Below the pieces are notes generated by a model. That model saw only the letters and a program-made list of their open reading frames with translations, did no database searches and had not been told where the DNA came from. Positions 1 through 18,408 of a stretch of 18,408 nucleotides of DNA are shown here, piece after piece. Position 1 is the first letter of the stretch. Each line of letters opens with the position of its first letter. Source of the stretch: a virus; the IMG/VR virus record IMGVR_UViG_3300045988_016268, positions 1 through 18,408 of that record. The stretch is one strand, 5' to 3'. Position numbers and translations under genes: made by a program.

Positions 1-296
1 CAGGGGAGGGGTCCCAGCAGCTAGCTTTTTTCCATAACTGCTCTGTTGTGTGTGTTGCTGTCGCTCTCTGTTCTGTGTTTTTTTGTTGTCGTTTCTGTTG
101 TGTTTTTTTGCCCCGTCTCTGGTTCTTCTTGTGTTTTGCTGGCTTTTTTATTGTCGTTTCTGCTTGTTGTTTTGTCTGCGTTTTTTATCTCGTTGTTTTT
201 TATCGTTTTTTGTGTTGTTCGGCGTGTTGTGTTTTGTGGTGGTGTATTATATTAATTATCAACCAAGGAATGTAGAAAGGATGGTAGTTGAGATGA
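1..296. repeat. Left inverted terminal repeat (ITR-L), 296 bp, exact reverse complement of 18113..18408
   Basis: Base-by-base comparison of the two ends. Identity runs from nt 1 to nt 296 (...ggatggtagttgaga) and the first mismatch is nt 297 (t) versus the complement of 18112 (g). All three reading frames give identical ORF translations at both ends in the supplied track. Confidence 0.97.
215..256 (+). promoter_or_regulatory. Putative inward-facing early promoter inside ITR-L (AT-rich TATTATATTAAT box preceded by TG)
   Basis: This is the only AT-rich box in the ITR (tgTATTATATTAATTATC at 243..260). It lies about 25-35 nt upstream of the RBS and ATG at 281/293. TTGTTC (215..220) and TTGTGG (233..238) are imperfect -35 candidates with non-ideal spacing. 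Confidence 0.3.
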
Positions 297-478
297 TGTG
301 TCGTCAAGATATTAAGAATGAGGTTGTTGATTATATTCGCAACAGTGGCGAGCGTGTTGTGGATTATGATGTTGATGCTATTGTGGATTGTCTTGTTGTT
401 ATGTATAAGCGTGAGGGTGTTGAGTTTTATCGTTATTGTTTTGAGACTGTGGTTTTTACGAATCGTGTAGCCGAGTGA
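281..478 (+). CDS. Hypothetical small acidic early protein whose start codon lies inside ITR-L
   Basis: Translation is MVVEMMCRQDIKNEVVDYIRNSGERVVDYDVDAIV... An AAGGAA / GAAAGGA Shine-Dalgarno-like sequence sits at 265..281. The alternative ATG is at 293. The upstream part of ORF 50..478 is a Cys/Phe/Leu/Val artefact of the A-free ITR. No recognisable domain. Confidence 0.6.
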   Translation: MVVEMMCRQDIKNEVVDYIRNSGERVVDYDVDAIVDCLVVMYKREGVEFYRYCFETVVFTNRVAE

Positions 479-501
479 GCAATAAGAGAAGGAGAGCTAA
501 A

Positions 502-747
502 ATGTTTAAAGTTAAAGCTTATGTAACTGAGATTGAACCTCATAATTTATATGAGGTCGATATTGACGGTTTTAAGACAGCTGTTGCGCCTTGTATGAAA
601 ATTGATGATAGTGTGGTCACGTTTAAATCAGCTCTTACTACAGTTCTTGAATTAAACTATGGTGATTGTGGTTTTGATTTCATATGTTGTGGTGTTAAGG
701 ATGGTGTTGCTTGCTATGTTGTTTCAATTTATGATTATGCATGGTGA
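502..747 (+). CDS. Hypothetical protein (81 aa)
   Basis: ATG at 502 is preceded by GAAGGAGAG (489..497). The in-frame upstream start at 475 lacks an RBS. A strong terminator hairpin follows. No recognisable domain. Confidence 0.65.
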   Translation: MFKVKAYVTEIEPHNLYEVDIDGFKTAVAPCMKIDDSVVTFKSALTTVLELNYGDCGFDFICCGVKDGVACYVVSIYDYAW

Positions 748-756
748 CTGATAACA

Positions 757-785
757 AATAAGCCCCGCGATATGCGGGGCTTATT
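757..785. terminator. Bidirectional intrinsic terminator between convergent gene sets
   Basis: A perfect 12-bp stem, aataagccccgc (757..768) with gcggggcttatt (774..785), closes a 5-nt loop gatat. A/T runs flank both sides. It sits between the plus-strand stop at 747 and the minus-strand stop at 798. Confidence 0.85.
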
Positions 786-797
786 CATGCTGGGAGG

Positions 798-1865
798 TTA
801 GTAGTAGAGCACTTCACCGGGGTAGATGAGATTCATGTTGCCTGAGCTATATCCTGTGATGTTGTACATGCTGACCCCGAGCCGTGCGGCGATACTTGAT
901 AGTATGTCGCCCGCCTGCACTACGTATGTGCGCGATACTGTTGCGGTGCCTCCGCCGTTGTGACATACCTTGTCGCCGGGGTATACGATGGACGGGTTGC
1001 CGCTGGGTACGCTTACGTTCCACCAGTCAGACCAGAACATTGAAACGTACTGGCCGCTTTGGATGATAACGCAATTGGTGCCGCATGGGGTGTTTGGCGT
1101 GCTGGGTTGCGGTGCGGGTTGCGGTGCGGGTTGCGGTGCGGGCTTGGGTGCAACTTGTCCGCTACCAGCGTACGCGTGCCACGTGTTGAGGTCGCCGTAG
1201 ACTACGCTTAGGTCAACCCCTCCGGCCCAGCCGTTGACATAGCCGTTGCCAGTGTATTGCCATGCGACGGCGAACGGCCAGTAGCGGAGTGTGGGCTGTG
1301 TTGAGGGCGGGTTGAACCCGTAGATTGGTGTATAACCCAGCGTGTAAGCGGCTATCCACAGGCCATAGTTACCGGCGACAACTGCCGACCAGTCGTAACT
1401 GTTTTCGGTGTACTGGTTTGTGTAGATAATCGGCTTGGTGCCCCATGCGGCTTCCACGGTCTGAAGCCATGTGAGCGCCCAACCAGTATCCCATAGGGCG
1501 TTAGGCTCCCAGTCTAGAATTGGTACGATGCCTTTGCCAATGTATCCGCGTGTGTGGTCGATAAAGTAATTGGCCTCGCTAACAGCGCTGTTTTCCGTGT
1601 GCGCGAAATGGTAGACGCCGACGCCCTGTCCTGCCGCTAAGGCGTCCTGTACTACGCGGTCACAATCGGGGTTGACGTATCCGACGCCTTCGGTGGCTTT
1701 GGCGACAACGATTTGCGCGCCGGTGGTGGTGACGTTGATACCGGTCTGCCAACTGGATACGTCTATCATGTCCGCCGCGCTCGCGGTTGGCGCGAATATC
1801 AGTAGCAGTGTGGCGATTGCAGCAATTACGCTATAGGCGACTGCTTTAATTTTCTTTGCCATCAT
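798..1865 (-). CDS. Endolysin: Sec-type signal peptide, GH25 muramidase, (PAPQ)n linker, LysM cell-wall-binding region
   Basis: The N-terminus MMAKKIKAVAYSVIAAIATLLLIFAPTASA|AD has a basic n-region, a hydrophobic core and an ASA cleavage motif. GH25 hallmarks are present: DVSSWQ, AKATEG..YVNP, YHF and ILDWE. The linker reads PKPAPQPAPQPAPQP. The C-terminal YVVQAGDILSSIAARLGV...LIYPGEVL is a LysM motif, preceded by a degenerate LysM-like segment. The start may be the second ATG at 1862. Confidence 0.9.
   Translation of the reverse strand: MMAKKIKAVAYSVIAAIATLLLIFAPTASAADMIDVSSWQTGINVTTTGAQIVVAKATEGVGYVNPDCDRVVQDALAAGQGVGVYHFAHTENSAVSEANYFIDHTRGYIGKGIVPILDWEPNALWDTGWALTWLQTVEAAWGTKPIIYTNQYTENSYDWSAVVAGNYGLWIAAYTLGYTPIYGFNPPSTQPTLRYWPFAVAWQYTGNGYVNGWAGGVDLSVVYGDLNTWHAYAGSGQVAPKPAPQPAPQPAPQPSTPNTPCGTNCVIIQSGQYVSMFWSDWWNVSVPSGNPSIVYPGDKVCHNGGGTATVSRTYVVQAGDILSSIAARLGVSMYNITGYSSGNMNLIYPGEVLYY
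1104..1151. repeat. Tandem 12-bp repeat (gggttgcggtgc x3 plus one degenerate unit) encoding the PAPQ linker of the endolysin
   Basis: Read directly: units at 1104..1115, 1116..1127 and 1128..1139 are identical, and 1140..1151 (gggcttgggtgc) is diverged. Confidence 0.9.
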
Positions 1866-2211
1866 GTTCCTTTCTATCGATGTTGAAAATGTTGAGAATA
1901 TTAGAGTCTTTTAACTCGGGGTTGATTTTTACGCAATTTTCTATGATTGAGGTGATTTCAATTAAGCAAATGCCTGCGCAAACCGGAATGAATACCGGTA
2001 GCTCAATTCCGAGACTGACGTAGCCCGAACCGTATTCAACGATTAACGCGACGCAAATAATCGCTAGGTACGCGAACTTGTGCCCGAGTCCCTGTCTCAT
2101 TTTCTCGCTGGATAATTCGCCGTGCATAATCGCGTTGACCACGCCGGTAATATAGTCAATCAGCACCAATAAAAATACGATACCGATAACGATTAATTCA
2201 TGAATTGGCAT
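1846..2211 (-). CDS. Holin (phage_holin_4_1 / TcdE-like family)
   Basis: 121 aa with three hydrophobic helices. The family signature LIDYITGVVNAIMHGELSSEKMRQGLGHKF is present, and the C-terminus is charged. The gene lies immediately upstream of the endolysin and overlaps it by 20 nt. Confidence 0.85.
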   Translation of the reverse strand: MPIHELIVIGIVFLLVLIDYITGVVNAIMHGELSSEKMRQGLGHKFAYLAIICVALIVEYGSGYVSLGIELPVFIPVCAGICLIEITSIIENCVKINPELKDSNILNIFNIDRKEHDGKEN

Positions 2212-2221
2212 GAATATTTTC

Positions 2222-3361
2222 TCACTTTCTTATACCTGATTGTTGCAACAAGCCGCCAAGAATCATGCTGAATTCTGCTTTGATTTGCGGTGTTTCAAAA
2301 CGTAATCGTCCGACGCGATAGGCGCTTAATATTTTCTGTGTCATATCGTCGGAGCGTTTGAGCATGATGCAATCATTGTCAACCAGTCGGTAGTCAAACG
2401 TAAAATCACGGGTGATTTTCGGCTGTTTTTTGGTAATGATATATAGTACTTCGTCGGTATCGCTTAATTGTTGGTATACGTTGAAAATACCGTATTCTGT
2501 GGTCCTCAATGTGAAGGCGTAACCGGAGTTGTTGAAACCACTAATGAGGGTATTGGCGTTATCCCTGAAATCATTGTTGATTGCATAATTCGCATAATTT
2601 TCGTCATATTTGCGTAAAAATTGTCCGAACTTGGATGTGGCCACCTTGGCGCTGAACCCACCATAATCGGCCAGTTCCACCATGACGAAGCCATCACAAT
2701 AGCGTTGGTATTGCGTGTGATTATCCAACTGTGGTTTCAAGTTGATATTAAATGCGCTGAAATACGGGTTGGCCAATGTTACCGCGTTGCTGCACATGAT
2801 GACTCGCACTCTATCGTTCCAACGGTCAACCGTATTGTAGAACTCCTCAAGTGCGGTTACTTCACCGCCCAAATACCGCATGTTATCGGGGAAGATTTCA
2901 TCAAAAACAATGGTTCGCACCTTGGGATACGCAACTGATTTGACCTGTCCCGCCTGACTGAGGGCAATGAAGTACCCTATGATGTGCCATGTGGGGCGCG
3001 TCTTGCCGTGCTTGTCCGTGGTGGCGTCCCTGTCATCCAGCCAGTGACATTCAGCTTGATTGCCGGACACGCGAAACTCCAGTTCCGGGTATTGCTCCGC
3101 GATATCGGCAAACCATGTGCCCTTGTTTTTCTGTTCCTCCGCAGTCCTGCGTAGATAGATGAATTGCCAGCGTTTTTTAATCCAGTCGCCTATGACCAGT
3201 TTTTTGGCTCCGTAGGTTTTTCCGAGGCCGCGAGCGCCGATTACGAACATCCAAGGCGCGTGATAGGATAATACGCGCCTATAATCGTAATAATCCCCCT
3301 CTTCTAACAGTTTCTCCATAATACCCATCCTACCATACAGCAGCGACAGGCCGGTGGACAT
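2222..3361 (-). CDS. DNA encapsidation (packaging) ATPase, phi29 gp16-like
   Basis: Walker A is VIGARGLGKTYG and Walker B is RTIVFDEIF. The size of about 370 aa is typical of gp16-family packaging ATPases. Internal ATGs at 3328 and 3319 are possible true starts, and an AGGA lies about 9 nt upstream of 3319. Confidence 0.85.
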   Translation of the reverse strand: MSTGLSLLYGRMGIMEKLLEEGDYYDYRRVLSYHAPWMFVIGARGLGKTYGAKKLVIGDWIKKRWQFIYLRRTAEEQKNKGTWFADIAEQYPELEFRVSGNQAECHWLDDRDATTDKHGKTRPTWHIIGYFIALSQAGQVKSVAYPKVRTIVFDEIFPDNMRYLGGEVTALEEFYNTVDRWNDRVRVIMCSNAVTLANPYFSAFNINLKPQLDNHTQYQRYCDGFVMVELADYGGFSAKVATSKFGQFLRKYDENYANYAINNDFRDNANTLISGFNNSGYAFTLRTTEYGIFNVYQQLSDTDEVLYIITKKQPKITRDFTFDYRLVDNDCIMLKRSDDMTQKILSAYRVGRLRFETPQIKAEFSMILGGLLQQSGIRK

Positions 3362-3380
3362 CTACCGGCCTATCACTGCG

Positions 3381-4595
3381 CTAGAAGTTCGGCGGCGCGC
3401 TGGTGCCGTCCCATACATTCAACAGCGAGTAGACGGTATTATAGCGTGTCCCGTATGGCCCGAACGGGGGCGTATTGAGGATATTATTATACAGTTGTGT
3501 AAGCGATGAAGCATGAGGCACGTTCAACGCGCCAGCCGGGCTTTGGTGATAAGCACTCGTCCACAGTATTTGCATTTTCGCGTCACCATACATCTGTGGG
3601 TAACTCTCGTAATCCTCAGCGAACTGATTACGCTGGCCCTGCCGTGATTCCGTGCGCCTCGCCCACGTCTGGAACGCCGCGACTTCGCTACCGGTCATCG
3701 CCCTGTCGAACTTGCCGCCTGATTCCATGAGCGCGGCGATGTTCGGCGCGGCGGCGGCAAACGCCTCATATCCTACAGCGTCCACCGCCCTCATTGCATT
3801 CAAGACCTGCAAGCGGCGTCCAAAACTCCATTGCGCGATGCCGATACCCTGATTGTTTGGTTCGACAGCATCCCAGCGTAATGATGATTCAACGGTACCG
3901 ATGACATAGAGCGCGTATGAGCTTTTCCCGTCGCCTACGCTTGGCGTGCCCTGACCTTGGTCGGCGTCCGGCTGACCTGTGCCGCCGCGATATACCCACG
4001 TCTGGGCGGCTGACTTATAGAAAATGGCTTGCGATGATGTCGTGCCCGAGCCACTGTGATATACGAGGTTATCGCCCTGTAGTTGTATCCATGCGGAGAT
4101 GTCGCCGTCCACGTTCACGCCCGGATTATCACCGCCCGTCGGGTTATCGCCGGATTCCGGCGGTTCCGGCAATGCCGTGGGATGCAGATAACCGAGAAGC
4201 TGTGACCCCTTCGCGAGCGGTAGTGTTTGATGCACGGCGGGCGTTGGGTTTTGCGTCAACACGTCGATGCTGTCGCCTTGGACACCACCCCATACGATGG
4301 CCACGTGACTGCCGGGGTAGTTTTGACTGCCGAACCTCCAAAACACGACATCCCCCATGCCGGGCGTATAGTTGGCGTCTTTTTTCTCAAAAACACGCCC
4401 CACGGCGGACGTGGTGGGGAACATGATGTAATTGCCCGCCGCGTAACCTGTCGGGGTGATGCAATCACCTAACGACAGATTGTAATTATCCATGCAGTAT
4501 TTTGCCCACAGGTCCCAACATTGGGCACCGAAAACCCCGTCCATGTCCCAGTACTGGTTTTGGGTACGTTCCAACCATGCTTGTACGTCTACCAT
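3381..4595 (-). CDS. Tail-associated peptidoglycan hydrolase (phi29 gp13 position): N-terminal CHAP peptidase plus C-terminal lytic-transglycosylase-like domain
   Basis: CHAP Cys and His motifs are GAQCWDLWAKY and GSHVAIVW. The C-terminal TVESSLRWDAV...GIGIAQWS resembles the SLT-type ES...GLMQ signature. A Pro/Gly/Asp linker joins the two domains. Its position between the fibres and the ATPase matches the phi29 order. Confidence 0.75.
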   Translation of the reverse strand: MVDVQAWLERTQNQYWDMDGVFGAQCWDLWAKYCMDNYNLSLGDCITPTGYAAGNYIMFPTTSAVGRVFEKKDANYTPGMGDVVFWRFGSQNYPGSHVAIVWGGVQGDSIDVLTQNPTPAVHQTLPLAKGSQLLGYLHPTALPEPPESGDNPTGGDNPGVNVDGDISAWIQLQGDNLVYHSGSGTTSSQAIFYKSAAQTWVYRGGTGQPDADQGQGTPSVGDGKSSYALYVIGTVESSLRWDAVEPNNQGIGIAQWSFGRRLQVLNAMRAVDAVGYEAFAAAAPNIAALMESGGKFDRAMTGSEVAAFQTWARRTESRQGQRNQFAEDYESYPQMYGDAKMQILWTSAYHQSPAGALNVPHASSLTQLYNNILNTPPFGPYGTRYNTVYSLLNVWDGTSAPPNF

Positions 4596-4604
4596 AGTAT
4601 TAGT

Positions 4605-4634
4605 ATACCCCGCCCGGAATGCCGGACGGGGTAT
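4605..4634 (-). promoter_or_regulatory. GC-rich hairpin directly upstream of the tail-lysin start codon
   Basis: ataccccg (4605..4612) pairs with cggggtat (4627..4634), and ccgg (4614..4617) pairs with ccgg (4622..4625), with one mismatch. On the minus strand the hairpin ends 9 nt before the ATG at 4595 and contains the only G-rich SD-like sequence. No U-tract follows on the minus strand. Confidence 0.5.
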
Positions 4635-4657
4635 GTTTTCACGTGAAACATGAAAAC
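4635..4657. repeat. Copy 1 (imperfect) of the GTTTCACGTGAAAC palindrome family
   Basis: The sequence is gttttcacgtgaaacatgaaaac. The perfect 12-bp palindrome tttcacgtgaaa lies at 4637..4648. One extra T distinguishes it from the other copies. An outer inverted repeat pairs gttttc (4635..4640) with gaaaac (4652..4657). The copy is intergenic. Confidence 0.9.
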
Positions 4658-4710
4658 TTCCAATACGGTTACACCATACGGTTGCCGTCCGTGGTGGTGT
4701 TACGTTGGTG

Positions 4711-5622
4711 TCAGATTACAAAATAAGAGAGTTGCAGTGTCTGTTTCAGCTGAGTGTTTGTCTTGATTGTTCCCTGACAATAGAAAGATACGACCCCATC
4801 TCCGGTGATACTAATATTGCATGGCCCGGAGTCATTACCATACGTGAACGGATAGGAATTTATAAAGCCGTTCGGTCGATATCCTTCCGGCATTGTCCCG
4901 ATAATGAGTGAGCCGGGGTTCACGTTCGACGTACAGTTAGCGTTGGAGTGCCCGTCTGGCGAACCGAAACGCACCATGATGTTGACGAATTTTGACAGCG
5001 GTGAGTAATATACCGTCCATGATGCGTTAGAAAAATGATTAGTCAGCACGTTAGTTCGCTGAACCAATGCCGTCGCTGATTGTCCCGAGGTTTTCAGGCT
5101 GGTTAATTCTTCCTGTACGTTCGTCGCCGCTGTCGTCGCGTTTGTCGCTTCAGTGTGGATTTGCTGTGCGGTGCCCGAGTATCCGCCCTGCTTGGTAAAC
5201 GTCGTGTCGGCCTGCGCTTTTGTGTACACGTCGGCGGCGTTTGCCTTGCCGTCAACCGTGCCGGACAGCGAGGACACGGTGCCCTGTAATGCCGTCAATG
5301 CGGTGTTTTCGGCCTTGCCGTTAATCGTGGACATAAGTGCTTGCGCGGTTGGCTCTGAGGTCACGCCAAGCGCGGTAAAATATGATTCCTGCGCGGCAAT
5401 ATCACTCTTATTAGTCTGCGCCAATGATAGAGCGTTATCCGCCGTGCTTTTCGCCGTATTGGCGGTACTTGCCGCGGTGGTCGCGTCCGTCGCGTTGCGG
5501 TACATCTGCGAGTCGATTTTACTCATGTCCGCTGTGTAGTCGCCGCGCCATGACGGTTTATCGTCCGGGCTGTCCCCGAACTGGCTGAGATTATAATGAG
5601 GGGTTTTATTGATACTACTCAT
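4711..5622 (-). CDS. Tail fibre / receptor-binding protein 1
   Basis: The N-terminal motif HYNLSQFGDSPDDKPSWRGDYTADMSKIDSQMY is shared with the adjacent gene. An Ala/Thr-rich predicted coiled shaft follows, then a compact C-terminal domain. The RBS is GAGGAA. The gene overlaps the upstream gene by 8 nt. Confidence 0.7.
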   Translation of the reverse strand: MSSINKTPHYNLSQFGDSPDDKPSWRGDYTADMSKIDSQMYRNATDATTAASTANTAKSTADNALSLAQTNKSDIAAQESYFTALGVTSEPTAQALMSTINGKAENTALTALQGTVSSLSGTVDGKANAADVYTKAQADTTFTKQGGYSGTAQQIHTEATNATTAATNVQEELTSLKTSGQSATALVQRTNVLTNHFSNASWTVYYSPLSKFVNIMVRFGSPDGHSNANCTSNVNPGSLIIGTMPEGYRPNGFINSYPFTYGNDSGPCNISITGDGVVSFYCQGTIKTNTQLKQTLQLSYFVI

Positions 5623-6562
5623 GAGAGGATTCCTCGCTTTCAGTATTACGGGTAGGCGTCCCTACCCGAACAATATTATAGTTGTCGGAATATTGTGTGT
5701 CCAGTTGTGTGGCGGTCAATCCCGTAGTGGACGGTACAGATTGCGATAGCGCCTGCTCTAACGCGGATACACGAGCAACGAGAGTATCATATGTATTCAC
5801 TGTTACGTAATTGGCTAAATCTGATATTTTCGCGAATGTTCGCCATGGTGCCCAAGAGTTGTGATAATTACGTCTCATATAGATGTTAGAATCAGAGTCG
5901 TTTGAAAACACTATTTCCAATATAGCAAGAGCCGATACTCTGAGTTTAAAACATATTCCCTCTACGTTTGCATGCGGTTTTGTGCCCTTAGAGCCGTTTG
6001 CTGCATGATATATTTTACCTATTGTTGATTCGTCGATAGAATCGTAATCTAATTGCGATGTCGGCAATGGATTAAAAAATAAACCACCTTGAAAAACTCC
6101 TAATGGACTGCCGCCCGTACCGTCGCCCGCCAGCGTGGCATCATGCGCAACCGCCGTCAATCCGCCCGAGCTGCTGTCACCCACATAGCTAATAGTGACC
6201 TGATTGCCCGACGTTTCGATATTGATACCGCTTCCCGCTTTGATGTCGCCCGCCGTCAACCGGTCGGCTATCGCCGCCGCGAGGGCTTGCGTTACGCTCT
6301 CCGTAGTTGCGTACCCATCGAGACTGGGAATGTCCTCGGTTCGGGCTATCGTATCCGCCACGCCCAAATAGCTATCGGCGGTGCCGTCGCCGGTAAGGTC
6401 GGCGGTATGCTCTACCGTGGTCATGCCGCCCGCCTGTGACGCGGCGTAGATTGCCGAGTCAATCTTGGACATGTCCTCATTGTAATCGCCGGTATAGGTT
6501 GGGCGGTCATCCTCCGTATACTGGGATAATCCGTAGTGCTCGGTGTGGTTGGTGGCGGTCAT
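5615..6562 (-). CDS. Tail fibre / receptor-binding protein 2 (paralogous N-terminus)
   Basis: The true start is taken as ATG 6562 (MTATNHTEHYGLSQYTEDDRPTYTGDYNEDMSKIDSAIY), preceded by AGAGGGG and forming an ATGA overlap with the upstream stop. LxGDGTxxSxLGV fibre repeats occur twice. The C-terminal domain is low in GC. Confidence 0.7.
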   Translation of the reverse strand: MTATNHTEHYGLSQYTEDDRPTYTGDYNEDMSKIDSAIYAASQAGGMTTVEHTADLTGDGTADSYLGVADTIARTEDIPSLDGYATTESVTQALAAAIADRLTAGDIKAGSGINIETSGNQVTISYVGDSSSGGLTAVAHDATLAGDGTGGSPLGVFQGGLFFNPLPTSQLDYDSIDESTIGKIYHAANGSKGTKPHANVEGICFKLRVSALAILEIVFSNDSDSNIYMRRNYHNSWAPWRTFAKISDLANYVTVNTYDTLVARVSALEQALSQSVPSTTGLTATQLDTQYSDNYNIVRVGTPTRNTESEESSHE

Positions 6563-7200
6563 GGTCGCACCCCTCTGTTCTCGAAGTTCGATACGGTCGG
6601 GTTGCGCTGAACATACTTGGCGTCCGCGTCGCCCTCGGTCAGGTAAATGTCTGCCGGTTCGCCCTCGGGGATACTCTTGCCGTAAGGGAACTGCGAACGT
6701 CCCGGAAAATCGCCCGGCACGCAATTGTCTACAGCGGTTGCGCGTAAATCATATTCACGCGCGGACAACCCCAGAGCGTCGTACATAGATGCCTTAAGCT
6801 CCATGTCATCATAATCCCCCCAAAACAGTCCATGATTACGGGCGTTATCGTACATTCCATCAAGAACTGTTTGCAGGGCGTCCTGTCTGCCATATACCGG
6901 CGACCACGCTAAACCTGTGACATGCGACTGTTCAATAAGTCTGATAAGTTCTTCGCGTAGAGCGGCCATCTGCTTGAGCAGATTATCGGCCATATTCTTG
7001 ATGTCCTGATTATTGGCGTCAATCGCTTTGTTCACCGACTCAACCAAGGTGTTGAAGTCGGATTGCAAGGTGTCAAGATTATGGCGTAGGCATTCAATCA
7101 ACTGCAATGTCGTCAGTCCGTCCCGATAGGTGAACGGAACGGACGTGGGCACCCCGTCAAACAGGCGTTGCCGTGGAATCAGCGCGTTAATGGCAACCAT
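6559..7200 (-). CDS. Tail or appendage structural protein with a central coiled coil (function inferred from position)
   Basis: ATG 7200 is preceded by GGGAG, 2 nt after the upstream stop. A heptad-like segment reads LQSDFNTLVESVNKAIDANNQDIKNMADNLLKQMAALREELIRLIEQ. The gene lies between the lower collar and the fibres. Confidence 0.5.
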   Translation of the reverse strand: MVAINALIPRQRLFDGVPTSVPFTYRDGLTTLQLIECLRHNLDTLQSDFNTLVESVNKAIDANNQDIKNMADNLLKQMAALREELIRLIEQSHVTGLAWSPVYGRQDALQTVLDGMYDNARNHGLFWGDYDDMELKASMYDALGLSAREYDLRATAVDNCVPGDFPGRSQFPYGKSIPEGEPADIYLTEGDADAKYVQRNPTVSNFENRGVRP

Positions 7201-7202
7201 GA

Positions 7203-8947: not shown

Positions 8948-8959
8948 ACTACCATCATA

Positions 8960-11212: not shown

Positions 11213-11233
11213 ATTATCCCTTTCACAAAAAAT

Positions 11234-11265: not shown

Positions 11266-11272
11266 TATTATA

Positions 11273-13554: not shown

Positions 13555-13563
13555 ATTATAGCA
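13555..13563 (-). promoter_or_regulatory. Extended -10 promoter element TGCTATAAT overlapping the polymerase stop codon (candidate late promoter)
   Basis: The minus strand reads tatgcTATAATagtcgg, a perfect TATAAT with TGn immediately upstream. ATGACG is a weak -35 candidate 15 nt upstream. The predicted start is near 13548. Confidence 0.4.
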
Positions 13564-15016
13564 TAAAAGTGTGGCCGTCATCATTGATATGGCGTGAACC
13601 GGGTATAAACTCATCATAGGGGATGGGGGCGGCTCGATGCACGCCACTCAGACGCATTACCGTGTCGCCATTCGTTTCCACCCCGCAATATTTGCGATTG
13701 CCTAGGATGCGGAGCTTCTCGTAGGTATGGTCGTTTTTCCACTCTCCTAGTTTCCGGTCATCTGTTTCCATGTCTTCGGGCGCGTCCAATCCTTCCAATA
13801 TCATGCCATCGGTATCGGCGTAGAGCACGCGGTCGGCGTTCGCGTTCATCGCACGGGATAGTATCCGCCGTCCATAGGCGTTGACATATGCGGCGGTCGG
13901 CAACCATGCCAGACTGTTGGCCGACTCGGGTTTGTCCACGGTAAAATCCACACCACCATCCACGGACGGTTTTGGATGCAACATGGGCCGGTAGAGCGAG
14001 GCCCCGAACTTTCCCACCAGCGAGTTCAATAACAGTTTCGCCATCTGTTTGCGCTCCCCCGTCGCGGTCTGTTTCACGTGAAACCATTTGTCCACATACG
14101 TATAATAAAGTTCGTGTGATTTGCGGAACTTCCAGCCGCCGACATGCTCCCACATGTGGACGTCATAGTTTTCGGTCAGCGTTTCCCAATCCACGTCCGC
14201 GACTGGCATAGTAACGACGCCGAGCGTGCTATCCAAGCGTTCACCCTCATACCCCCATACAGGTAGGATATTGGTGAGTGTCGCCGTTTTGCCCGCTTTC
14301 AACCTTGCATCAAACGTGATGACGTCGATATGCAGCGGATAATCAGCATCATAACGATACTTCCCGTCATACCACACGGGGGCACCTACCGGCATGGGGG
14401 CATCGCGCATGATACTTGGGTAGAGACTGTTCACATCCCAGCTTCGGCAATCCCGGTATTCGCCCGACTTACTGTATACTATCGCTCCATAGTACGCGGG
14501 GCGCATCCGATGATAATCATCCCTATCCAATGACGGAAAATGGCGTTTGAATTCGGCGTAATCGCCATCAATGTAGTCGGTCATCGCCATTGATGCTATG
14601 GTCGTGCCCCTGAGGTTCAGGGCGGCGCATTCCTGTGCGATATTCCACGTGGTTTCCAAATCATCCACACCGCCAAATGTTTCACGTGAAACATTCAAAC
14701 CATCGTCGCGCGTGACATTGCGCACGTCCAGAAAATCCACGGTGATGCCGCCCATGCGCACGCGAAAACTGTAAAAATGCCCGCGAATGTTGAACGTGCC
14801 CCATACACCGTCTTTGCTTGGGTTCGGTTGTAATGGGAGTCGTTTCAACAGTTCGGCGGCTATGGGCTTGATATCCTGCCACCCGTGAGCACACCATACG
14901 CGCGTATGATAATCGAGCATGGTGAGACGGATGACGGCGTTCACCGTCAACGGTTCCGTGCCGTCATCCGTCAATAGTGTTGCGCCGTCCGTTGCCGCAG
15001 TTCGACGCTCTTTCAT
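13556..15016 (-). CDS. Protein-primed family-B DNA polymerase (phi29 gp2 type)
   Basis: Motif A is WDVNSLYPS, motif B is KLLLNSLVGKF, motif C is VLYADTDG and KxY is GNRKYCG. The TPR1-like segment YDGKYRYDADYPLHIDVITFDARLKAG parallels phi29 FEGKYVWDEDYPLHIQHIRCEFELKEG. The start is taken as ATG 15016 (MKERR), preceded by AAGGATGGAG, 14 nt after the upstream stop. The ORF track start at 15058 would overlap the upstream gene by 28 nt. Confidence 0.93.
   Translation of the reverse strand: MKERRTAATDGATLLTDDGTEPLTVNAVIRLTMLDYHTRVWCAHGWQDIKPIAAELLKRLPLQPNPSKDGVWGTFNIRGHFYSFRVRMGGITVDFLDVRNVTRDDGLNVSRETFGGVDDLETTWNIAQECAALNLRGTTIASMAMTDYIDGDYAEFKRHFPSLDRDDYHRMRPAYYGAIVYSKSGEYRDCRSWDVNSLYPSIMRDAPMPVGAPVWYDGKYRYDADYPLHIDVITFDARLKAGKTATLTNILPVWGYEGERLDSTLGVVTMPVADVDWETLTENYDVHMWEHVGGWKFRKSHELYYTYVDKWFHVKQTATGERKQMAKLLLNSLVGKFGASLYRPMLHPKPSVDGGVDFTVDKPESANSLAWLPTAAYVNAYGRRILSRAMNANADRVLYADTDGMILEGLDAPEDMETDDRKLGEWKNDHTYEKLRILGNRKYCGVETNGDTVMRLSGVHRAAPIPYDEFIPGSRHINDDGHTFML
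14071..14084. repeat. Copy 3 of the GTTTCACGTGAAAC palindrome, inside the polymerase gene
   Basis: Exact 14-mer. On the coding strand it is read as tgg ttt cac gtg aaa cag (W F H V K Q). Confidence 0.95.
14676..14695. repeat. Copy 4 of the palindrome, extended to 20 bp (AATGTTTCACGTGAAACATT), inside the polymerase gene
   Basis: Exact 20-bp palindrome. On the coding strand it is read as aat gtt tca cgt gaa aca ttt (N V S R E T F), a different frame from copy 3. Confidence 0.95.
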
Positions 15017-15030
15017 GACTCCATCCTTTT

Positions 15031-15975
15031 TTAGTGTCGTGCCGCGTTGGCCATCCATTCATCAAGTCGTGTTTCTACATCGCCTGCATCCGCCTTGGTT
15101 TCCCATTTATGTGTTTTATCATTATACCACGCGGCTTCCCGCACAACGGTGCTGAAATTCGTGTTGTTTATCAGCCATCGTTTTTGACGGTTCGACAGGG
15201 ATGCGAATTTTTGGGCTATGCTGTAATCGAATGCCTCAAGCCGTTGCGAGACCCTATCAAAATCCGAACCCCCCCCGCCTCCGGAAATCTGTCTAGTGCC
15301 TGCCTGCAATGGCGCTCGACCTACAAGCCCGGCGTATTCAAGCAACTCTCGTTCAAGTTTCCTTCTACCCCCTTCTCGTATCATTATGCGCGCGTGGCTT
15401 ATGCCGCGCTCCGAGCCGAACACGTTCGCACGGTTGCGTGTGAGTTCGTCGCGCGCCGAACCGCCGACCGTGTGAGTGCCCAACACGTCAAAGGGGGATT
15501 CTCCGGCGCGTTCCATTTCACGGATTTCGCCCACCGTGTAGCTGGCCATGCTCAACGCCTCGAATTGTTGGGCGCGTTTGATTTTCCGCCGTGCCTCGAT
15601 GCGGCGGCGCTGTTGCTGTCGCAACGTCTTCCGACGTTTCGGCGGGGCGGCGGCGATTTCCGCGTCGGTAATCAGCGGACGCGCCGCCATTTCACGGTCA
15701 AATTTCGTAATATGGACGTCGGGCACGACCTGATACGGCTCGCTGTCCCGCGCCCTTAAGGCTTGCTGTTGTTCCCCGAATTCCTGTCCGATACGGCGGG
15801 CAACCTGTTCGAGTTGTTGGGCGCTGAGTTTTCCGAGAAACGTTTCGGTGATTTGCTTGGGGAGATGTCCGGTGCTGTAATCTCTGACCGCTTGCTCTCG
15901 GCGTACCTGTGCCGACCTGATGGCGGCATTACGTTTCAGGCTGTTAACACGTCGATTGTTTTTACGTTTTGCCAC
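15031..15975 (-). CDS. Putative terminal protein (replication primer), assigned by position and composition
   Basis: 314 aa with a GTG start preceded by AAGGAACGAGGG. The N-terminus MAKRKNNRRVNSLKRNAAIRSAQVRR and internal stretches (PPKRRKTLRQQQRRRIEARRKIKR) are very basic. The gene lies immediately upstream of the polymerase and is translationally adjacent to it, as in phi29 (gp3-gp2), in a genome with long ITRs. I found no recognisable sequence similarity. Confidence 0.55.
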   Translation of the reverse strand: MAKRKNNRRVNSLKRNAAIRSAQVRREQAVRDYSTGHLPKQITETFLGKLSAQQLEQVARRIGQEFGEQQQALRARDSEPYQVVPDVHITKFDREMAARPLITDAEIAAAPPKRRKTLRQQQRRRIEARRKIKRAQQFEALSMASYTVGEIREMERAGESPFDVLGTHTVGGSARDELTRNRANVFGSERGISHARIMIREGGRRKLERELLEYAGLVGRAPLQAGTRQISGGGGGSDFDRVSQRLEAFDYSIAQKFASLSNRQKRWLINNTNFSTVVREAAWYNDKTHKWETKADAGDVETRLDEWMANAARH

Positions 15976-16001
15976 GGCCCTCGTTCCTTGTGAGTATAAA
16001 A

Positions 16002-16039
16002 CACCCCTCGCCGCAAGGATGGGAAAACGGCGAGGGGTG
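16002..16039 (-). terminator. Hairpin plus U-tract (terminator or attenuator) upstream of the terminal-protein and polymerase operon
   Basis: cacccctcgccg (16002..16013) pairs with cggcgaggggtg (16028..16039), a 12-bp perfect stem with a 14-nt loop. On the minus strand it is followed by ttttatact. Confidence 0.55.
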
Positions 16040-16054
16040 AGTCTGGCGGCAACA

Positions 16055-16066
16055 TCCCTATAGGGA
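16055..16066. repeat. 12-bp perfect palindrome TCCCTATAGGGA in the intergenic region
   Basis: Read directly. It lies between the stop at 16102 and the hairpin at 16002..16039 and is a possible operator. Confidence 0.7.
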
Positions 16067-16101
16067 CATTGTCATGTTATCATATGGTATAGACAAATAT
16101 T

Positions 16102-16539
16102 CTATCCACGGTCTTTTTCCGACACCAGTTCAAGGTCGAAGAACTTGAATCCACGGCGACTCTTCTTTTCCACCACCTTGAGGGCAAGAGGATGATTCCA
16201 CGTATCCGGCGTTCCGAAAATCGCGAACAGGTTGCCAAAAGCGTGCGCCAATGTGGGCGAGGCGGCGGCAAAGTCACCCTCCTCCGCATGGATAACGACA
16301 CGGGTAGATGAGTTGATTTCACCGGTCTCTTGGTTGGCTACCTCGATGGCCTGCGCAAGCACGTTGGTCACATGAAGTGGCTCATTGAGGTGTTCATCAA
16401 CCTTATCGGCGGTCTGCATAGCGTTGTACAGCGCCATTTTGCCGTCCATGGTGTCAGTGTTGAAGAAGTGGGATACGGCGTTAGCGCCGTTAGCCGCAAA
16501 ATTGTTGCCGTTTGCTACGGTCAGTTCGTTGTCAGCCAT
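16102..16539 (-). CDS. Hypothetical early protein (possible ssDNA-binding protein by position upstream of the terminal protein and polymerase)
   Basis: 145 aa with a strong AAGGAAAGG RBS. The C-terminal pattern VVIHAEEGDFAAASPT...FAIFGTPDTWNHPLALKVVEKKSRRGFKFFDLELV is reminiscent of small phage OB-fold SSBs, but I cannot verify this. Confidence 0.6.
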   Translation of the reverse strand: MADNELTVANGNNFAANGANAVSHFFNTDTMDGKMALYNAMQTADKVDEHLNEPLHVTNVLAQAIEVANQETGEINSSTRVVIHAEEGDFAAASPTLAHAFGNLFAIFGTPDTWNHPLALKVVEKKSRRGFKFFDLELVSEKDRG

Positions 16540-16569
16540 GTGTGTTGCCTTTCCTTATAGGGTTAGTAA

Positions 16570-16881
16570 TTATTTTTCCTCGGAGATGATATCATCTTCA
16601 ACCACGTTGCCGTTAACCGACCCCGGATAGTCGATAATGGTATCATCTCCAAACTCACAATTAGCCCAATAGATTGCCTCATCCATGCGCGTAGCCTGCG
16701 CATGGTATTCGGCGGACATAGGAAGCATGTCCCTGTTAATCTTGCGGGCTTTTTTCATTGCCATGTCAGCCGTGCGGCATGCGCCATCCACGACTACTTC
16801 GGTGTCCACGAGTTCCCCGTTTTCACTGCGCGTAACGCCGCGCACGATACTATAGTGCTTGGCTCGCTTAATATATGCCAT
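16570..16881 (-). CDS. Hypothetical early protein with an acidic C-terminal tail
   Basis: 103 aa with an AAGGTGG RBS 9 nt upstream of ATG 16881. The C-terminus is VVEDDIISEEK. No recognisable domain. Confidence 0.6.
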   Translation of the reverse strand: MAYIKRAKHYSIVRGVTRSENGELVDTEVVVDGACRTADMAMKKARKINRDMLPMSAEYHAQATRMDEAIYWANCEFGDDTIIDYPGSVNGNVVEDDIISEEK

Positions 16882-16898
16882 AATTATGCCACCTTATT

Positions 16899-17408
16899 TC
16901 AATATTGCTGCTGTTGTGACATTCTTGCAATGTCTTCATCAGTATACTGTACATCGGTTAGATTGTCAAAACAGAGACACGCAATTTTGATGATAGTCTG
17001 AGCGAACCCATCACCCTCCCACGTCTGGCACATCTCATAGCAAGTCGCGCCCTTGACATGACAGACCGCGCACCACGCCACCATCGCCGGACAGTAAATA
17101 AGCCCGGACAACATTTCAATGTCCTGCATTCGTACTAATGCAGCGTACATCGACGAACTTGGCGAGATGCTTAGACAAATGTTCGCCGCGTGTTCGATAC
17201 TGTCGGCAAACGCCACCTGACCCCCCTGAGGCTTGTAAAAGTCCTTAAGCAGCGTTACAGTGCGACAAAACGTCTCCCAGTCGCCCTCACCACGATTGTA
17301 TTCCCGCAAGTGTAGATTACGCCGACGGCCACGAATGACACGGCGCACACGGTCATCATCCAAAACACCGTCATCAAACCAATTCGTACGGTCATCATTG
17401 CTCTTCAT
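16899..17408 (-). CDS. Hypothetical early protein (Cys-rich C-terminal half)
   Basis: ATG 17408 (MKSNDD) is preceded by GGAGAGG. The track start at 17417 is a GTG without a better RBS. No recognisable domain. Confidence 0.6.
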   Translation of the reverse strand: MKSNDDRTNWFDDGVLDDDRVRRVIRGRRRNLHLREYNRGEGDWETFCRTVTLLKDFYKPQGGQVAFADSIEHAANICLSISPSSSMYAALVRMQDIEMLSGLIYCPAMVAWCAVCHVKGATCYEMCQTWEGDGFAQTIIKIACLCFDNLTDVQYTDEDIARMSQQQQY

Positions 17409-17410
17409 AG

Positions 17411-17662
17411 TCAACACCTCTCCAACAACAACGTATCAGCCAACGCCCTCGCGTCAACCAGCATATGAGCCACCTGCGCGTAATCACACGCATCAAACGC
17501 CACAGCCGACCAAACCAAACGACGCCTACCGCCAGACTGAGACCGCATTAATACCGTATATCGTAGTTCATATATCCGATTATGAGGACAATACACCAGC
17601 CGCACATCACCAAACTCAAACTTGGACGGAAACACGGCCACAACCTCATCACTCACCATCAT
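17411..17662 (-). CDS. Hypothetical early protein
   Basis: ATG 17662 shares 1 nt with the upstream TGA (TGATG). GAAGGTG lies upstream. The track start at 17665 is a TTG. No recognisable domain. Confidence 0.55.
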   Translation of the reverse strand: MMVSDEVVAVFPSKFEFGDVRLVYCPHNRIYELRYTVLMRSQSGGRRRLVWSAVAFDACDYAQVAHMLVDARALADTLLLERC

Positions 17663-17913
17663 CAAACACCTTCTTCTTCCTCGAACGGCAAACGCACTTC
17701 AACAACACCGTACAAAGTCCCCTGAAGGTCAAAACGGGAAGAAGCAAAACCAACATACACATCAAACCCATAAAACGCATGACGTACAACATCACGCACG
17801 CCATCCAACGCCTCCTTAACCGTATCCGCCGGATACGGGCCATACTTATACACATACGCGGTCGTAAGCTCAAACACCGTAAAATCATCAGGCGTAACAG
17901 TAAAATACCACAT
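17662..17913 (-). CDS. Hypothetical early protein
   Basis: 83 aa. ATG 17913 is preceded by AAGGAGAG. No recognisable domain. Confidence 0.6.
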   Translation of the reverse strand: MWYFTVTPDDFTVFELTTAYVYKYGPYPADTVKEALDGVRDVVRHAFYGFDVYVGFASSRFDLQGTLYGVVEVRLPFEEEEGV

Positions 17914-17936
17914 TATCTCTCCTTATATCGATTCTT

Positions 17937-18128
17937 TCAAACAGTAAACTCTTCACCATACTCAGCATAATGCGCAATCAAATACGCATTAAAAAAATCC
18001 TGTTCAGAACAAGGAGCAAGAGCCACATGCAAGCCCTCACGAATATCATCATCCATAAGAGCCACAGCACTGTCATAATCGACCTCACGCCCATCCCAAT
18101 TAATAACCTTACTCATCTCAACTACCAT
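17937..18128 (-). CDS. Hypothetical small acidic early protein whose start codon lies inside ITR-R
   Basis: Translation is MVVEMSKVINWDGREVDYDSAVALMDDDIREGLHVALAPCSEQDFFNAYLIAHYAEYGEEFTV. It shares the ITR-encoded RBS and MVVEM with the gene at 281..478. The alternative ATG is at 18116. The protein is strongly acidic. Confidence 0.6.
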   Translation of the reverse strand: MVVEMSKVINWDGREVDYDSAVALMDDDIREGLHVALAPCSEQDFFNAYLIAHYAEYGEEFTV

Positions 18129-18408
18129 CCTTTCTACATTCCTTGGTTGATAATTAATATAATACACCACCACAAAACACAACACGCCGAACAACACAAA
18201 AAACGATAAAAAACAACGAGATAAAAAACGCAGACAAAACAACAAGCAGAAACGACAATAAAAAAGCCAGCAAAACACAAGAAGAACCAGAGACGGGGCA
18301 AAAAAACACAACAGAAACGACAACAAAAAAACACAGAACAGAGAGCGACAGCAACACACACAACAGAGCAGTTATGGAAAAAAGCTAGCTGCTGGGACCC
18401 CTCCCCTG
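18113..18408. repeat. Right inverted terminal repeat (ITR-R), 296 bp
   Basis: Exact reverse complement of 1..296. The window ends ...gctagctgctgggacccctcccctg, which is the reverse complement of the first bases caggggaggggtcccagcagctagc. Confidence 0.97.
18153..18194 (-). promoter_or_regulatory. Mirror copy of the putative ITR promoter, facing inward from the right end
   Basis: Identical sequence to 215..256 by ITR symmetry. It lies upstream of the minus-strand gene that starts at 18128/18116. Confidence 0.3.

What the first reader, a model, noticed from the sequence alone, without database searches (positions are those of the whole stretch)
39..245. The ITR core is almost adenine-free on the 5'-terminal strand (3 A in about 207 nt) and built from T-run and GT-rich repeat units
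From 39 to 149 the plus strand contains no A. Up to 245 there are only three, each within a TTTTTTAT unit at about 144..151, 181..188 and 196..203. The tract is made of T6-7 runs (78..84, 103..109, 144..149, 181..186, 196..201, 206..211) separated by G/T/C words. The exact 12-mer ttgtcgtttctg occurs twice (86..97 and 151..162), and TGTGTTTTTTTG-like units also recur. Such strict exclusion of one base over 200 nt is far beyond ordinary skew. It implies that one strand of each origin-proximal region is a purine-poor T/G/C strand and the other an A/C/G strand. Possible roles are an unwinding or curvature element of the origin, an array of sites for a phi29 p6-like end-binding protein, or a strand made resistant to some nuclease or modification. 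None of these can be decided from sequence.
Basis: seen in the sequence. Interest (0 to 1): 0.7.

Follow-up and report, generated by a model that had tools for sequence, protein, structure and literature searches.

The report
Adenine-poor ends of gut phage genome
The almost adenine-free stretch in the terminal repeat of this small phi29-like gut phage is real, but it is the extreme tip of a 2-3 kb strand-specific composition gradient at both genome ends, most likely a chemical scar of how the linear DNA is copied, not a purpose-built origin element.

Summary
Observation confirmed. Positions 38-149 hold no A, and 39-245 is T121/G53/C30/A3, inside a perfect 296-bp ITR of a complete phi29-like podovirus genome. 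Its nearest cultured relatives are Bifidobacterium phages.

The tract is not special to this genome. In 37 distinct related ITRs the core is 0.8-14% A (pooled A .05, C .14, G .24, T .57).

It is not special to the ITR either. At four-fold degenerate codon sites the 5'-ended strand at both ends is T-rich and C/A-poor. T falls from .52 to .16 and C rises from .14 to .36 over about 2.5 kb. The sign follows the genome end, not gene orientation, and this holds in four independent Bifidobacterium-phage lineages. phi29 and Cp-1 lack the gradient.

Best reading: single-strand-type base damage or loss (C to T, loss of A) on the displaced, protein-capped 5' strand, with the unconstrained ITR core sitting at the local neutral composition.

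The core is also a degenerate 25-26-bp repeat array with about 13-nt T periodicity and no 10.5-nt phasing. It lies between the conserved terminus and the early promoter. A gene beside the SSB gene has a p6-like predicted fold, so a p6-type nucleoprotein array is plausible but unproven.

The parts
1..296 (+). Left inverted terminal repeat. The right copy is 18113-18408 on the minus strand.
   Evidence: Perfect reverse-complement identity for 296 nt. It ends one base after the ATG at 293-295.
1..37 (+). Conserved terminal block, presumably the core origin. The true end is probably about 6 nt longer (AAAAGGA...).
   Evidence: Mean conservation 0.86 over 37 family ITRs. Relatives start AAAAGGAGGGGAGGGG, and some contigs carry adapter sequence before it.
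38..215 (+). A-poor T/G/C core of the ITR, a degenerate array of about 25-26-bp units with T-runs. Positions 38-100 are conserved in sequence and 101-150 are variable.
   Evidence: Composition. TRF finds period 25 at 41-111 (77% matches), period 24 at 71-183 and period 13 at 170-213. Lag 25-27 self-similarity and a 12.75-nt T periodicity. Conservation profile.
216..262 (+). Early promoter inside the ITR. The GGCGTGTTGT block and -10 TATTAT at 245-250 are here; 216-245 is the last part of the reported A-free tract.
   Evidence: Conservation 0.76 across the family. The same CGGCGTGT...TATnAT architecture occurs in BP1 and BadAztec1. Promoter function is inferred.
263..295 (+). Leader, ribosome-binding region and shared start codon (ATG 293-295).
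   Evidence: Sequence reading. Both ends share it, and the coding sequences differ after it.
18164..18371 (-). Mirror copy of the A-poor tract at the right end.
   Evidence: T-free run 18260-18371 on the plus strand.
1..2750 (+). Left terminal gradient zone. The plus (5'-ended) strand is T-rich and C/A-poor at four-fold sites, including inside the outward-transcribed endolysin, holin and packaging ATPase genes.
15900..18408 (-). Right terminal gradient zone. The minus (5'-ended) strand is T-rich and C/A-poor at four-fold sites of the early genes.
798..1865 (-). Endolysin (GH25 + LysM). It is transcribed towards the left end yet carries the end-specific bias (coding strand A .29, C .42, G .18, T .11).
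   Evidence: Pfam and PHROGs. Four-fold sites.
16570..16881 (-). 103-aa acidic early protein, a candidate analogue of the phi29 histone-like dsDNA-binding protein p6.
   Evidence: AF2 model pLDDT 74.8. Foldseek hits to 'Histone-like protein p6' and 'double-strand binding protein' of phi29-like phages, E 6e-4 to 4e-3. Position directly upstream of the SSB gene. Pfam p6 and hhalign are negative.
16102..16539 (-). phi29-type single-stranded DNA-binding protein.
   Evidence: PF17427, E 7e-15; phrog_6243.
13556..15058 (-). Protein-primed family B DNA polymerase.
   Evidence: PF03175, E 6.5e-34.
15031..15975 (-). Terminal-protein candidate (314 aa, pI 10.6).
   Evidence: Synteny only, since it lies directly upstream of the polymerase gene. 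No family hit.
17937..18116 (-). First gene driven by the right ITR promoter, an AcrIC5-family anti-CRISPR homologue.
   Evidence: PF22147, 75 bits, E 4e-21.

Best explanation
The A-poor tract is the non-coding, least constrained tip of an end-anchored, strand-antisymmetric composition gradient.

In protein-primed replication, the strand whose 5' end carries the terminal protein is the one displaced as single-stranded DNA from that end. Single-stranded DNA loses C (deamination to U, read as T) and, more slowly, A. As a result, or because genomes with deaminable bases there are selected against, this strand drifts to T>G>>C>A near each end.

The ITR core simply sits at that local equilibrium. 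In the window's lineage most of the few remaining A's have been replaced by G or T.

This composition overlies a real architecture: a conserved 37-nt terminus, about eight degenerate 25-26-bp units with T-runs (about 13-nt periodicity), then the early promoter, leader and ATG. The repeat array is the likeliest loading site for the phage's p6-like protein. By analogy with phi29, that protein would open the end for initiation and later shut off the adjacent early promoter.

Shown: the composition, the gradient, its independence from gene orientation, the repeat periodicity, and the fold-free strands.

Inferred: single-strand damage as the cause, the split between mutation and selection, and all protein binding.
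For: 1. Family-wide trait. In 37 distinct related ITRs the core is A .048, C .144, G .243, T .565, although the sequence of 101-215 is poorly conserved.

2. Same composition at neutral sites next door. Four-fold sites 250-500 nt from the end are A .07, C .14, G .27, T .52, relaxing to A .15, C .36, G .33, T .16 by about 2.5 kb.

3. The sign follows the end, not transcription. All long genes are on one strand, yet their four-fold A+C is .69 beside the left end (genes transcribed towards the end).50 mid-genome and .20 beside the right end. The pattern repeats in BD811P1 (.85/.54/.35), BP1 (.73/.55/.29) and BadAztec1 (.59/.49/.39), with p from 1e-2 to 1e-16. A pool of 50 genomes gives the same result.

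4. The direction is the one predicted for the displaced strand: C falls by about .20 and T rises by about .20 on the 5'-ended strand.

5. Among 20 independent close genome pairs, C/T versus A/G differences on the 5'-ended strand rise towards the lysin-side end (odds ratio 1.98, p 6e-4). G/T versus A/C differences rise at both ends (odds ratios 3.9-5.8).

6. Where at least 25% of relatives have an A, the window has G (6), T (6), C (1) or A (2).

7. Established background: phi29 replicative intermediates hold long single-stranded stretches, and C deamination there is a recognised hazard (PMC4974454).

8. Repeat array and p6-like ORF.
Against: 1. The gradient decays roughly exponentially (half-distance about 0.7-1.2 kb) and is flat from 3 to 15 kb. 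Simple symmetric strand displacement predicts single-strand exposure falling linearly to the genome centre.

2. phi29 and Cp-1 use the same replication mode but show no such gradient, and the Cp-1 ITR is A-rich and G-poor. Something lineage- or host-specific is therefore needed.

3. On the polymerase side the recent C/T excess is not significant (odds ratio 1.24, p .23). Four-fold divergence near the ends is not raised. Selection rather than raised mutation is thus not excluded.

4. The ITR core has somewhat less A (.048; window .015) than adjacent four-fold sites (.07-.09), so some extra constraint on the core is possible.

5. The p6 link rests on a moderate-confidence model and structural hits only.
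Confidence: 0.6

Rival explanations
1. A-exclusion is itself selected in the ITR core as a functional origin element. It would be an array of sites for a p6-like end-binding protein and/or an easily unwound element whose activity needs a T/G/C strand.
For: The core has 25-26-bp degenerate repeats with about 13-nt T periodicity, and this period is the strongest in 6 of 10 family ITRs, including the divergent L158. Positions 38-100 are conserved. There is a p6-like fold ORF next to the SSB gene. phi29 p6 nucleates 46-125 bp from the ends with 24-bp spacing (PMC4974454). The core has slightly less A than neighbouring four-fold sites.
Against: The same base composition is found at synonymous sites up to 2.5 kb away, in genes of both orientations. 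A content of the core varies 0.8-14% among functional relatives, some carrying A-containing dyad motifs. The periodicity is not detected in BP1 or BadAztec1. Per sequence the periodicity is only modestly significant (any-period p about .03-.1). Pfam p6 is not matched.
Confidence: 0.15
2. The bias is transcription- or expression-linked. It would arise from deamination of the non-template strand of strongly transcribed early genes, or from selection on early mRNAs (for example C-poor transcripts that escape Rho), with the ITR merely sharing it.
For: Early genes at both ends are transcribed inward from the ITR promoter, so their coding strand is the 5'-ended strand. Inward genes show a larger amplitude (T .48-.52) than outward genes (T about .33) at equal distance.
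Against: Outward-transcribed late genes beside the left end carry the bias with the sign set by the end, not by their own transcription, in four lineages. There is no step at the convergent hairpin near 760-786. The most biased DNA (38-215) lies upstream of the promoter.
Confidence: 0.1
3. Selection for structure-free single strands at the ends. Segregating keto bases to one strand and amino bases to the other stops hairpins, which would aid SSB coating, polymerase passage or ITR panhandle annealing.
For: Both strands of 38-245 are essentially unfolded as ssDNA (MFE -0.3 and -0.8 kcal/mol). The terminal roughly 1 kb are the weakest-folding windows of the genome.
Against: Lack of folding follows automatically from the composition. 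This model does not predict which strand should be keto-rich, yet it is always the 5'-ended one, at both unique flanks and in several lineages. phi29 and Cp-1 manage without it.
Confidence: 0.12
4. Chance, low-complexity misassembly or a sequencing artefact.
For: The first three bases may be adapter remnant, and several related contigs carry adapters at their ends.
Against: P is about 1e-18 against genome composition. The same layout occurs in 37 independently assembled, non-identical ITRs and in cultured phage BP1.
Confidence: 0.01

Closest known systems
Strand compositional asymmetry of vertebrate mitochondrial DNA (G+T-rich heavy strand from strand-displacement replication; C-to-T and A-to-G on the exposed strand)
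   Same: The bias is strongest at four-fold sites. Its sign is set by which strand is single-stranded in replication rather than by transcription. C-to-T dominates with a lesser loss of A. Amino-acid usage of the affected genes is shifted too (mitochondrial facts from my own knowledge and the reviews listed).
   Different: This is a linear phage genome with two mirror-image gradients anchored at protein-capped ends. The decay is steep, about 1 kb, instead of tracking exposure time across the genome. The amplitude reaches near-exclusion of one base in non-coding DNA.
phi29 p6 nucleoprotein complex at the replication origins
   Same: There is a small acidic early protein encoded next to the SSB gene with a p6-like predicted fold. 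A periodic sequence array lies some 40-200 bp from the end. An end-proximal early promoter sits where such a complex could repress it, as p6 represses phi29 promoter C2.
   Different: There is no sequence homology to p6. The period is about 13/26 bp rather than 12/24. The phi29 ITR is 6 bp and its ends are not A-depleted. No binding data exist.
Streptococcus phage Cp-1 ITR (236 bp, containing promoters)
   Same: It is a long ITR in a phi29-like phage with early promoters in or next to the repeat. The gene order matches, with early genes inward at both ends. It also shows strong depletion of one base on the 5' strand (G 7%).
   Different: The Cp-1 5' strand is A-rich (42%) and G-poor, which is the opposite keto/amino polarity. 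Cp-1 has no four-fold-site gradient.
Bifidobacterium phi29-like phages BP1, BD811P1-3, BadAztec/BadAargau
   Same: They share the genome layout, the conserved ITR promoter architecture, a G+T-rich 5' strand at the ends and the four-fold gradient.
   Different: Major capsid protein identity is only 36-42%. Their ITR cores hold 10-13% A, and the 25-26-nt periodicity is not detected.

Membership tests
phi29-like protein-primed podoviruses | Family B protein-primed DNA polymerase, phi29-type capsid, connector and gp16 packaging ATPase | tested here: met
   PF03175, PF25622, PF05352 and PF05894, all well above cut-off; PHROGs agree.
phi29-like protein-primed podoviruses | Linear genome with inverted terminal repeats and a terminal A-run for sliding-back | tested here: met
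   296-nt perfect ITR. Relatives begin AAAAGGAGGGG. The window itself appears to lack the last about 6 nt.
phi29-like protein-primed podoviruses | [quoted passage not shown] | not testable with these tools
   There is only a syntenic basic 314-aa ORF upstream of the polymerase gene, with no family hit.
phi29-like protein-primed podoviruses | Packaging RNA (pRNA) | tested here: not met
   No Rfam pRNA match anywhere in the window at E<=1. pRNA is not established outside the Bacillus phages, so this does not exclude membership.
phi29 p6-type origin nucleoprotein complex | A p6 homologue encoded by the phage | tested here: inconclusive
   Pfam PF17548 is not matched, although phi29 p6 itself scores 182 bits. 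hhalign probability is 0.4%. The AF2 model does hit p6 and dsDNA-binding proteins of phi29-like phages (E 6e-4 to 4e-3, TM .5-.6), and gene position, size and pI match.
phi29 p6-type origin nucleoprotein complex | Periodic (12/24-bp) bendability signal near the ends that nucleates binding | tested here: inconclusive
   T periodicity is 12.75-13.25 nt and repeats are 25-26 nt in most family ITRs. Per-sequence significance is modest and the sequences are related.
phi29 p6-type origin nucleoprotein complex | Demonstrated binding and stimulation of initiation | not testable with these tools
   Requires footprinting and in vitro replication.
Replication-associated strand asymmetry (single-strand exposure type) | Bias present at synonymous (four-fold) sites | tested here: met
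Replication-associated strand asymmetry (single-strand exposure type) | Sign follows the replication strand, not the transcription strand | tested here: met
   Outward and inward genes share the polarity of the nearer end.
Replication-associated strand asymmetry (single-strand exposure type) | C-to-T and A-to-G direction on the exposed strand | tested here: met
   C falls by .20 and T rises by .20; A is roughly halved. The recent C/T excess is significant on one side only.
Replication-associated strand asymmetry (single-strand exposure type) | Magnitude proportional to the predicted time spent single-stranded (linear to mid-genome) | tested here: not met
   Decay is exponential-like within about 2.5-3 kb and flat in the centre.
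Intrinsically curved DNA from phased A/T-tracts | T-runs phased at about 10-11 bp | tested here: not met
   No power at 10-11 nt in the window or in nine relatives. Run spacings are 25, 40.5, 37, 15 and 10.

The most novel reading that the evidence does not exclude
In these actinobacterial phi29-like phages, the terminal 1-2 kb at each end spend much of the infection as protein-capped single strands. The textbook symmetric model does not predict this state. It could arise from resection or idling of the unprotected 3' strand, or from frequent abortive displacement. If so, the genome ends evolve under a mitochondrion-like damage regime. The phage has turned the resulting keto/amino strand segregation into a fold-free origin whose 13-bp T-run periodicity is read by a highly diverged p6 analogue. 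That analogue would both open the end and silence the ITR promoter.
Probability: 0.25. Interest if true: 0.75.

Novelty: new variant of a known kind. Interest (0 to 1): 0.55.

Why it matters
If the reading is right, base composition alone records which DNA is single-stranded in vivo during replication of uncultured gut phages. It also shows a sharply end-localised exposure that the standard phi29 model does not predict, which gives a concrete, testable question for cultured relatives (BP1, BD811P1).

Practical consequences:
- The mirror-image keto skew marks true genome ends and orientation in metagenomic assemblies of protein-primed phages.
- A-free DNA has no stop codons or ATG, so it produces spurious ORFs (46-255, 48-275, 50-478).
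- The ITRs are cassettes that place variable immediate-early anti-defence genes, here an AcrIC5 homologue, under a duplicated promoter.

Tried and rejected
- Rfam scan for a pRNA or any RNA in the tract found nothing.
- The sigma-70 and terminator consensus scans of 1-2000 gave nothing useful.
- No inverted repeats occur in 1-320.
- Phased-tract curvature is rejected, as there is no 10-11-nt signal.
- A universal property of protein-primed phage ends is rejected, because phi29, Cp-1 and Reje lack it.
- Transcription-associated bias as the main cause is rejected, because outward genes share the polarity of the nearer end.
- 5'-strand resection by host nucleases would expose the 3' strand and give the opposite sign, so it is rejected by reasoning.
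- The singleton polymorphism spectrum on an 81-sequence alignment was uninformative, because four-fold sites are saturated and the closest genomes are only about 96.5% identical. It was replaced by the close-pair test, which only partly separates mutation from selection.
- BLASTP, hhalign and Pfam comparison of ORF 16570-16881 with phi29 p6 were negative.
- The BD811P1 GenBank record lacks its ends, so its ITR could not be examined.
- The literature search found no prior description of this gradient in phi29-like phages. The library is incomplete.

Full report
WHAT THE WINDOW IS. The 18,408-bp window is a complete linear genome with a perfect 296-nt inverted terminal repeat. It encodes a phi29-type major capsid protein, connector, tail knob, gp16 packaging ATPase, protein-primed family B DNA polymerase, phi29-type SSB and a GH25 endolysin. 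Almost all genes lie on the minus strand (798-18116). Two small genes at the left end (293-478 and 502-747) point inward. The ITR ends one base after a shared ATG (293-295), so promoter, leader, ribosome-binding region and start codon are duplicated at both ends. The nearest cultured relatives are Bifidobacterium podophages (BP1, BD811P1-3, BadAztec/BadAargau) at 36-42% capsid identity. About 130 close relatives from human samples are in IMG/VR.

CHECK OF THE OBSERVATION. The recount confirms it. There is no A from 38 to 149. Positions 39-245 are T121/G53/C30/A3, and the three A's sit in TTTTTTAT. The listed T-runs and repeated words are exact. Against genome composition the depletion has P of about 1e-18.

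THE TRACT IS A FAMILY TRAIT, NOT A PECULIARITY. All related complete termini share one layout:
- a conserved end (AAAAGGAGGGGAGGGGCCCCAGCAGCTA...);
- an A-poor T/G/C core of 130-250 nt;
- a conserved block, GGCGTGTYGT...TGGTATTAT, which I read as the early promoter;
- the leader and the ATG.

Across 37 distinct ITRs the core holds 0.8-14% A (median 3.4%; pooled A .048, C .144, G .243, T .565). The window, at 1.5%, is at the low end. Given the family mean, 3 A's in 207 nt has P of about 0.01. Relatives with more A often carry copies of a near-palindrome, CTAAGCGCGTAG, which the window lacks. Where at least a quarter of relatives have A, the window has G or T.

THE COMPOSITION IS NOT CONFINED TO THE ITR. 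This is the main result. At four-fold degenerate codon sites, pooled over the family, the bases written on the 5'-ended strand go from A .07, C .14, G .27, T .52 at 250-500 nt from the end to about A .15, C .36, G .33, T .16 by 2.5 kb. This happens at both ends. The ITR core composition is the extrapolation of this neutral-site trend to the terminus.

All long genes are on one strand, so gene orientation relative to the end differs between the two ends. The lysis and packaging genes run towards the left end, and the early genes run away from the right end. Even so, the bias has the polarity of the nearer end in both cases. In the window, four-fold A+C on the common coding strand is .69 near the left end.50 mid-genome and .20 near the right end. 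Using deposited CDS coordinates, the values are .85/.54/.35 in BD811P1.73/.55/.29 in BP1 and .59/.49/.39 in BadAztec1. A 50-genome pool gives the same result.

The gradient crosses the convergent hairpin near 760-786 without a step. Inward genes show a larger amplitude than outward ones, so a coding or transcription component adds to the bias but does not set its sign.

Actinomyces phage Av-1 and Arthrobacter phage Mendel show the effect at least at one end. phi29, Cp-1 and Curtobacterium phage Reje do not, and the Cp-1 ITR is 42% A and 7% G on its 5' strand.

MECHANISM. In protein-primed replication the polymerase starting at an end copies the 3'-ended strand and displaces the 5'-ended, protein-capped strand as single-stranded DNA. 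This is established for phi29, and cytosine deamination in those single strands is a recognised hazard that phi29 counters with the UDG inhibitor p56 (PMC4974454). The observed change is a shift of about .20 from C to T plus a halving of A, on exactly that strand. This is the signature known from the displaced heavy strand of vertebrate mtDNA (my own knowledge).

I therefore read the A-poor, C-poor, T-rich strand as the product of single-strand base damage. It could act as mutation pressure, as selection against deaminable bases where uracil or hypoxanthine excision would break the strand, or as both.

A test on 20 independent close genome pairs gives partial support for an ongoing strand-asymmetric flux. 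On the lysin side, C/T versus A/G differences on the 5'-ended strand rise from a ratio of 0.90 (centre) to 1.32 and then 1.78 (odds ratio 1.98, p 6e-4). G/T versus A/C differences rise 4-6-fold at both ends. On the polymerase side the C/T excess is not significant, and four-fold divergence near the ends is not raised. Mutation and selection therefore cannot be separated here.

WHAT THIS MODEL DOES NOT EXPLAIN.
- The decay is roughly exponential (half-distance 0.7-1.2 kb) with a flat centre. Symmetric displacement predicts exposure falling linearly to mid-genome.
- The gradient is lineage-restricted.

Resection or idling of the unprotected 3' strand with fill-in, or frequent abortive displacement, would give an end-localised exposure of the correct strand. 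These are only ideas. Host 5'-strand resection would give the opposite sign and can be discarded.

ARCHITECTURE WITHIN THE TRACT.
- Conservation across 37 ITRs is .86 for 3-37.73 for 38-100.48 for 101-150.59 for 151-215 and .76 for the promoter at 216-262.
- The core is a degenerate tandem array. TRF reports period 25 at 41-111 (77% matches), period 24 at 71-183 and period 13 at 170-213.
- Lag 25-27 self-similarity recurs in most relatives.
- The strongest periodicity of T content in the window is 12.75 nt (band p .003; any-period p .06). The strongest period is 12.75-13.25 nt in 6 of 10 family ITRs tested, including the sequence-divergent L158.
- There is no 10-11-nt signal, so phased-tract curvature is not supported.
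- BP1 and BadAztec1 lack the periodicity.

A P6 ANALOGUE? ORF 16570-16881 (103 aa, pI 4.8) lies directly upstream of the SSB gene, as gene 6 does in phi29 (104 aa, pI 4.5). It is a conserved core gene of the family. Sequence methods find no relation to p6. An AlphaFold model (pLDDT 74.8) does match predicted structures named histone-like protein p6 or double-strand binding protein from phi29-like phages (E 6e-4 to 4e-3, TM .5-.6).

phi29 p6 nucleates 46-125 bp from the ends on a periodic bendability signal, binds every 24 bp, stimulates initiation and represses the end-proximal promoter C2 (annotation). An analogous complex on the 38-215 array, reaching the ITR promoter, is the most economical functional reading of the repeats. 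It remains an inference.

BY-PRODUCTS OF THE COMPOSITION. Both strands of 38-245 are essentially unfolded as single-stranded DNA (MFE -0.3 and -0.8 kcal/mol), and the terminal kilobase is the weakest-folding part of the genome. This follows from keto/amino segregation. It may be useful, but it does not predict the constant polarity. An A-free strand has no stop codons and no ATG, and its complement has no start or stop codons at all, which explains the spurious ORFs through the tract.

VERDICT. Its suggestions of a p6-like array and of a strand shaped by base-modification chemistry are each partly borne out. The notable result is the end-anchored, strand-antisymmetric neutral-site gradient in actinobacterial phi29-like phages. 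I did not find it described in the held literature. It is a new variant of a known kind of replication-linked strand asymmetry, of moderate interest, with a clear experimental route to test it.

Noticed in passing
window 17937-18116 (-): The first gene downstream of the right ITR promoter is a 59-aa homologue of anti-CRISPR AcrIC5 (PF22147, 75 bits, E 4e-21). The genes immediately after the ITR differ between close relatives, which suggests the ITR promoters drive swappable immediate-early anti-defence cargo.
   Followed up: partly
window 1-3 and 18406-18408; loci L016, L023, L038, L040, L056: The window starts CAGGGGAGGGG, whereas relatives start AAAAGGAGGGGAGGGG. Several related contigs carry Nextera (…AGATGTGTATAAGAGACAG) or TruSeq adapter before the terminus. 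The window probably lacks about 6 terminal nt at each end, and its first 2-3 bases may be adapter remnant.
   Followed up: partly
window 293-296 and 18113-18116: The ITR ends one base after the start codon. Promoter, leader, ribosome-binding region and ATG are duplicated, and the two ends then encode different first proteins.
   Followed up: yes
loci L024, L026, L028, L097, L113, L136 (ITR cores): Relatives with more A in the ITR core carry 2-3 copies of a near-palindromic motif, CTAAGCGCGTAG, which looks like an operator. The window has none.
   Followed up: no
L162 (GenBank PQ571273, Bifidobacterium phage BP1) 1-291: The deposited left end holds about 260 nt of unrelated sequence followed by a TruSeq adapter (…ACACTCTTTCCCTACACGACGCTCTTCCGATCT) before the real terminus. 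The right end of the record lacks about 88 nt of the ITR.
   Followed up: partly
L163 (BadAztec1) 1-26 and 141-166: The 259-bp ITR of BadAztec1 contains an internal 26-nt inverted repeat (CGTTGCGCGATGGAATGCTCTAAAAC / its complement). The window's family has no such feature.
   Followed up: no
L167 (Cp-1) 1-236: The Cp-1 ITR is depleted of a different base. On the 5' strand G is 7% and A is 42%, the opposite keto/amino polarity to the window.
   Followed up: partly
window 46-255, 48-275, 50-478 (+) and mirror ORFs 18134-18363 (-): Mechanical ORFs run through the A-free tract in all three frames, because every stop codon and ATG contains an A. They are artefacts of composition and could be mis-annotated as genes.
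   Followed up: yes
window 13369-13555: A non-coding gap of about 190 nt lies between the polymerase gene and the head-gene block. It is conserved in position (180-230 nt) in BD811P1, BP1 and BadAztec1. It could hold the late promoter or a packaging RNA. No Rfam pRNA hit was found anywhere in the window.
   Followed up: no
window 15031-15975 (-): A 314-aa, very basic (pI 10.6) ORF overlaps the start of the polymerase gene. It is a terminal-protein candidate by position only and matches no Pfam or PHROG family.
   Followed up: partly
window 760-786: A GC-rich hairpin (GCCCCGC-GATAT-GCGGGGC) sits between the convergent left early genes and the endolysin gene. It is probably a bidirectional terminator, and the consensus scan missed it.
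   Followed up: no
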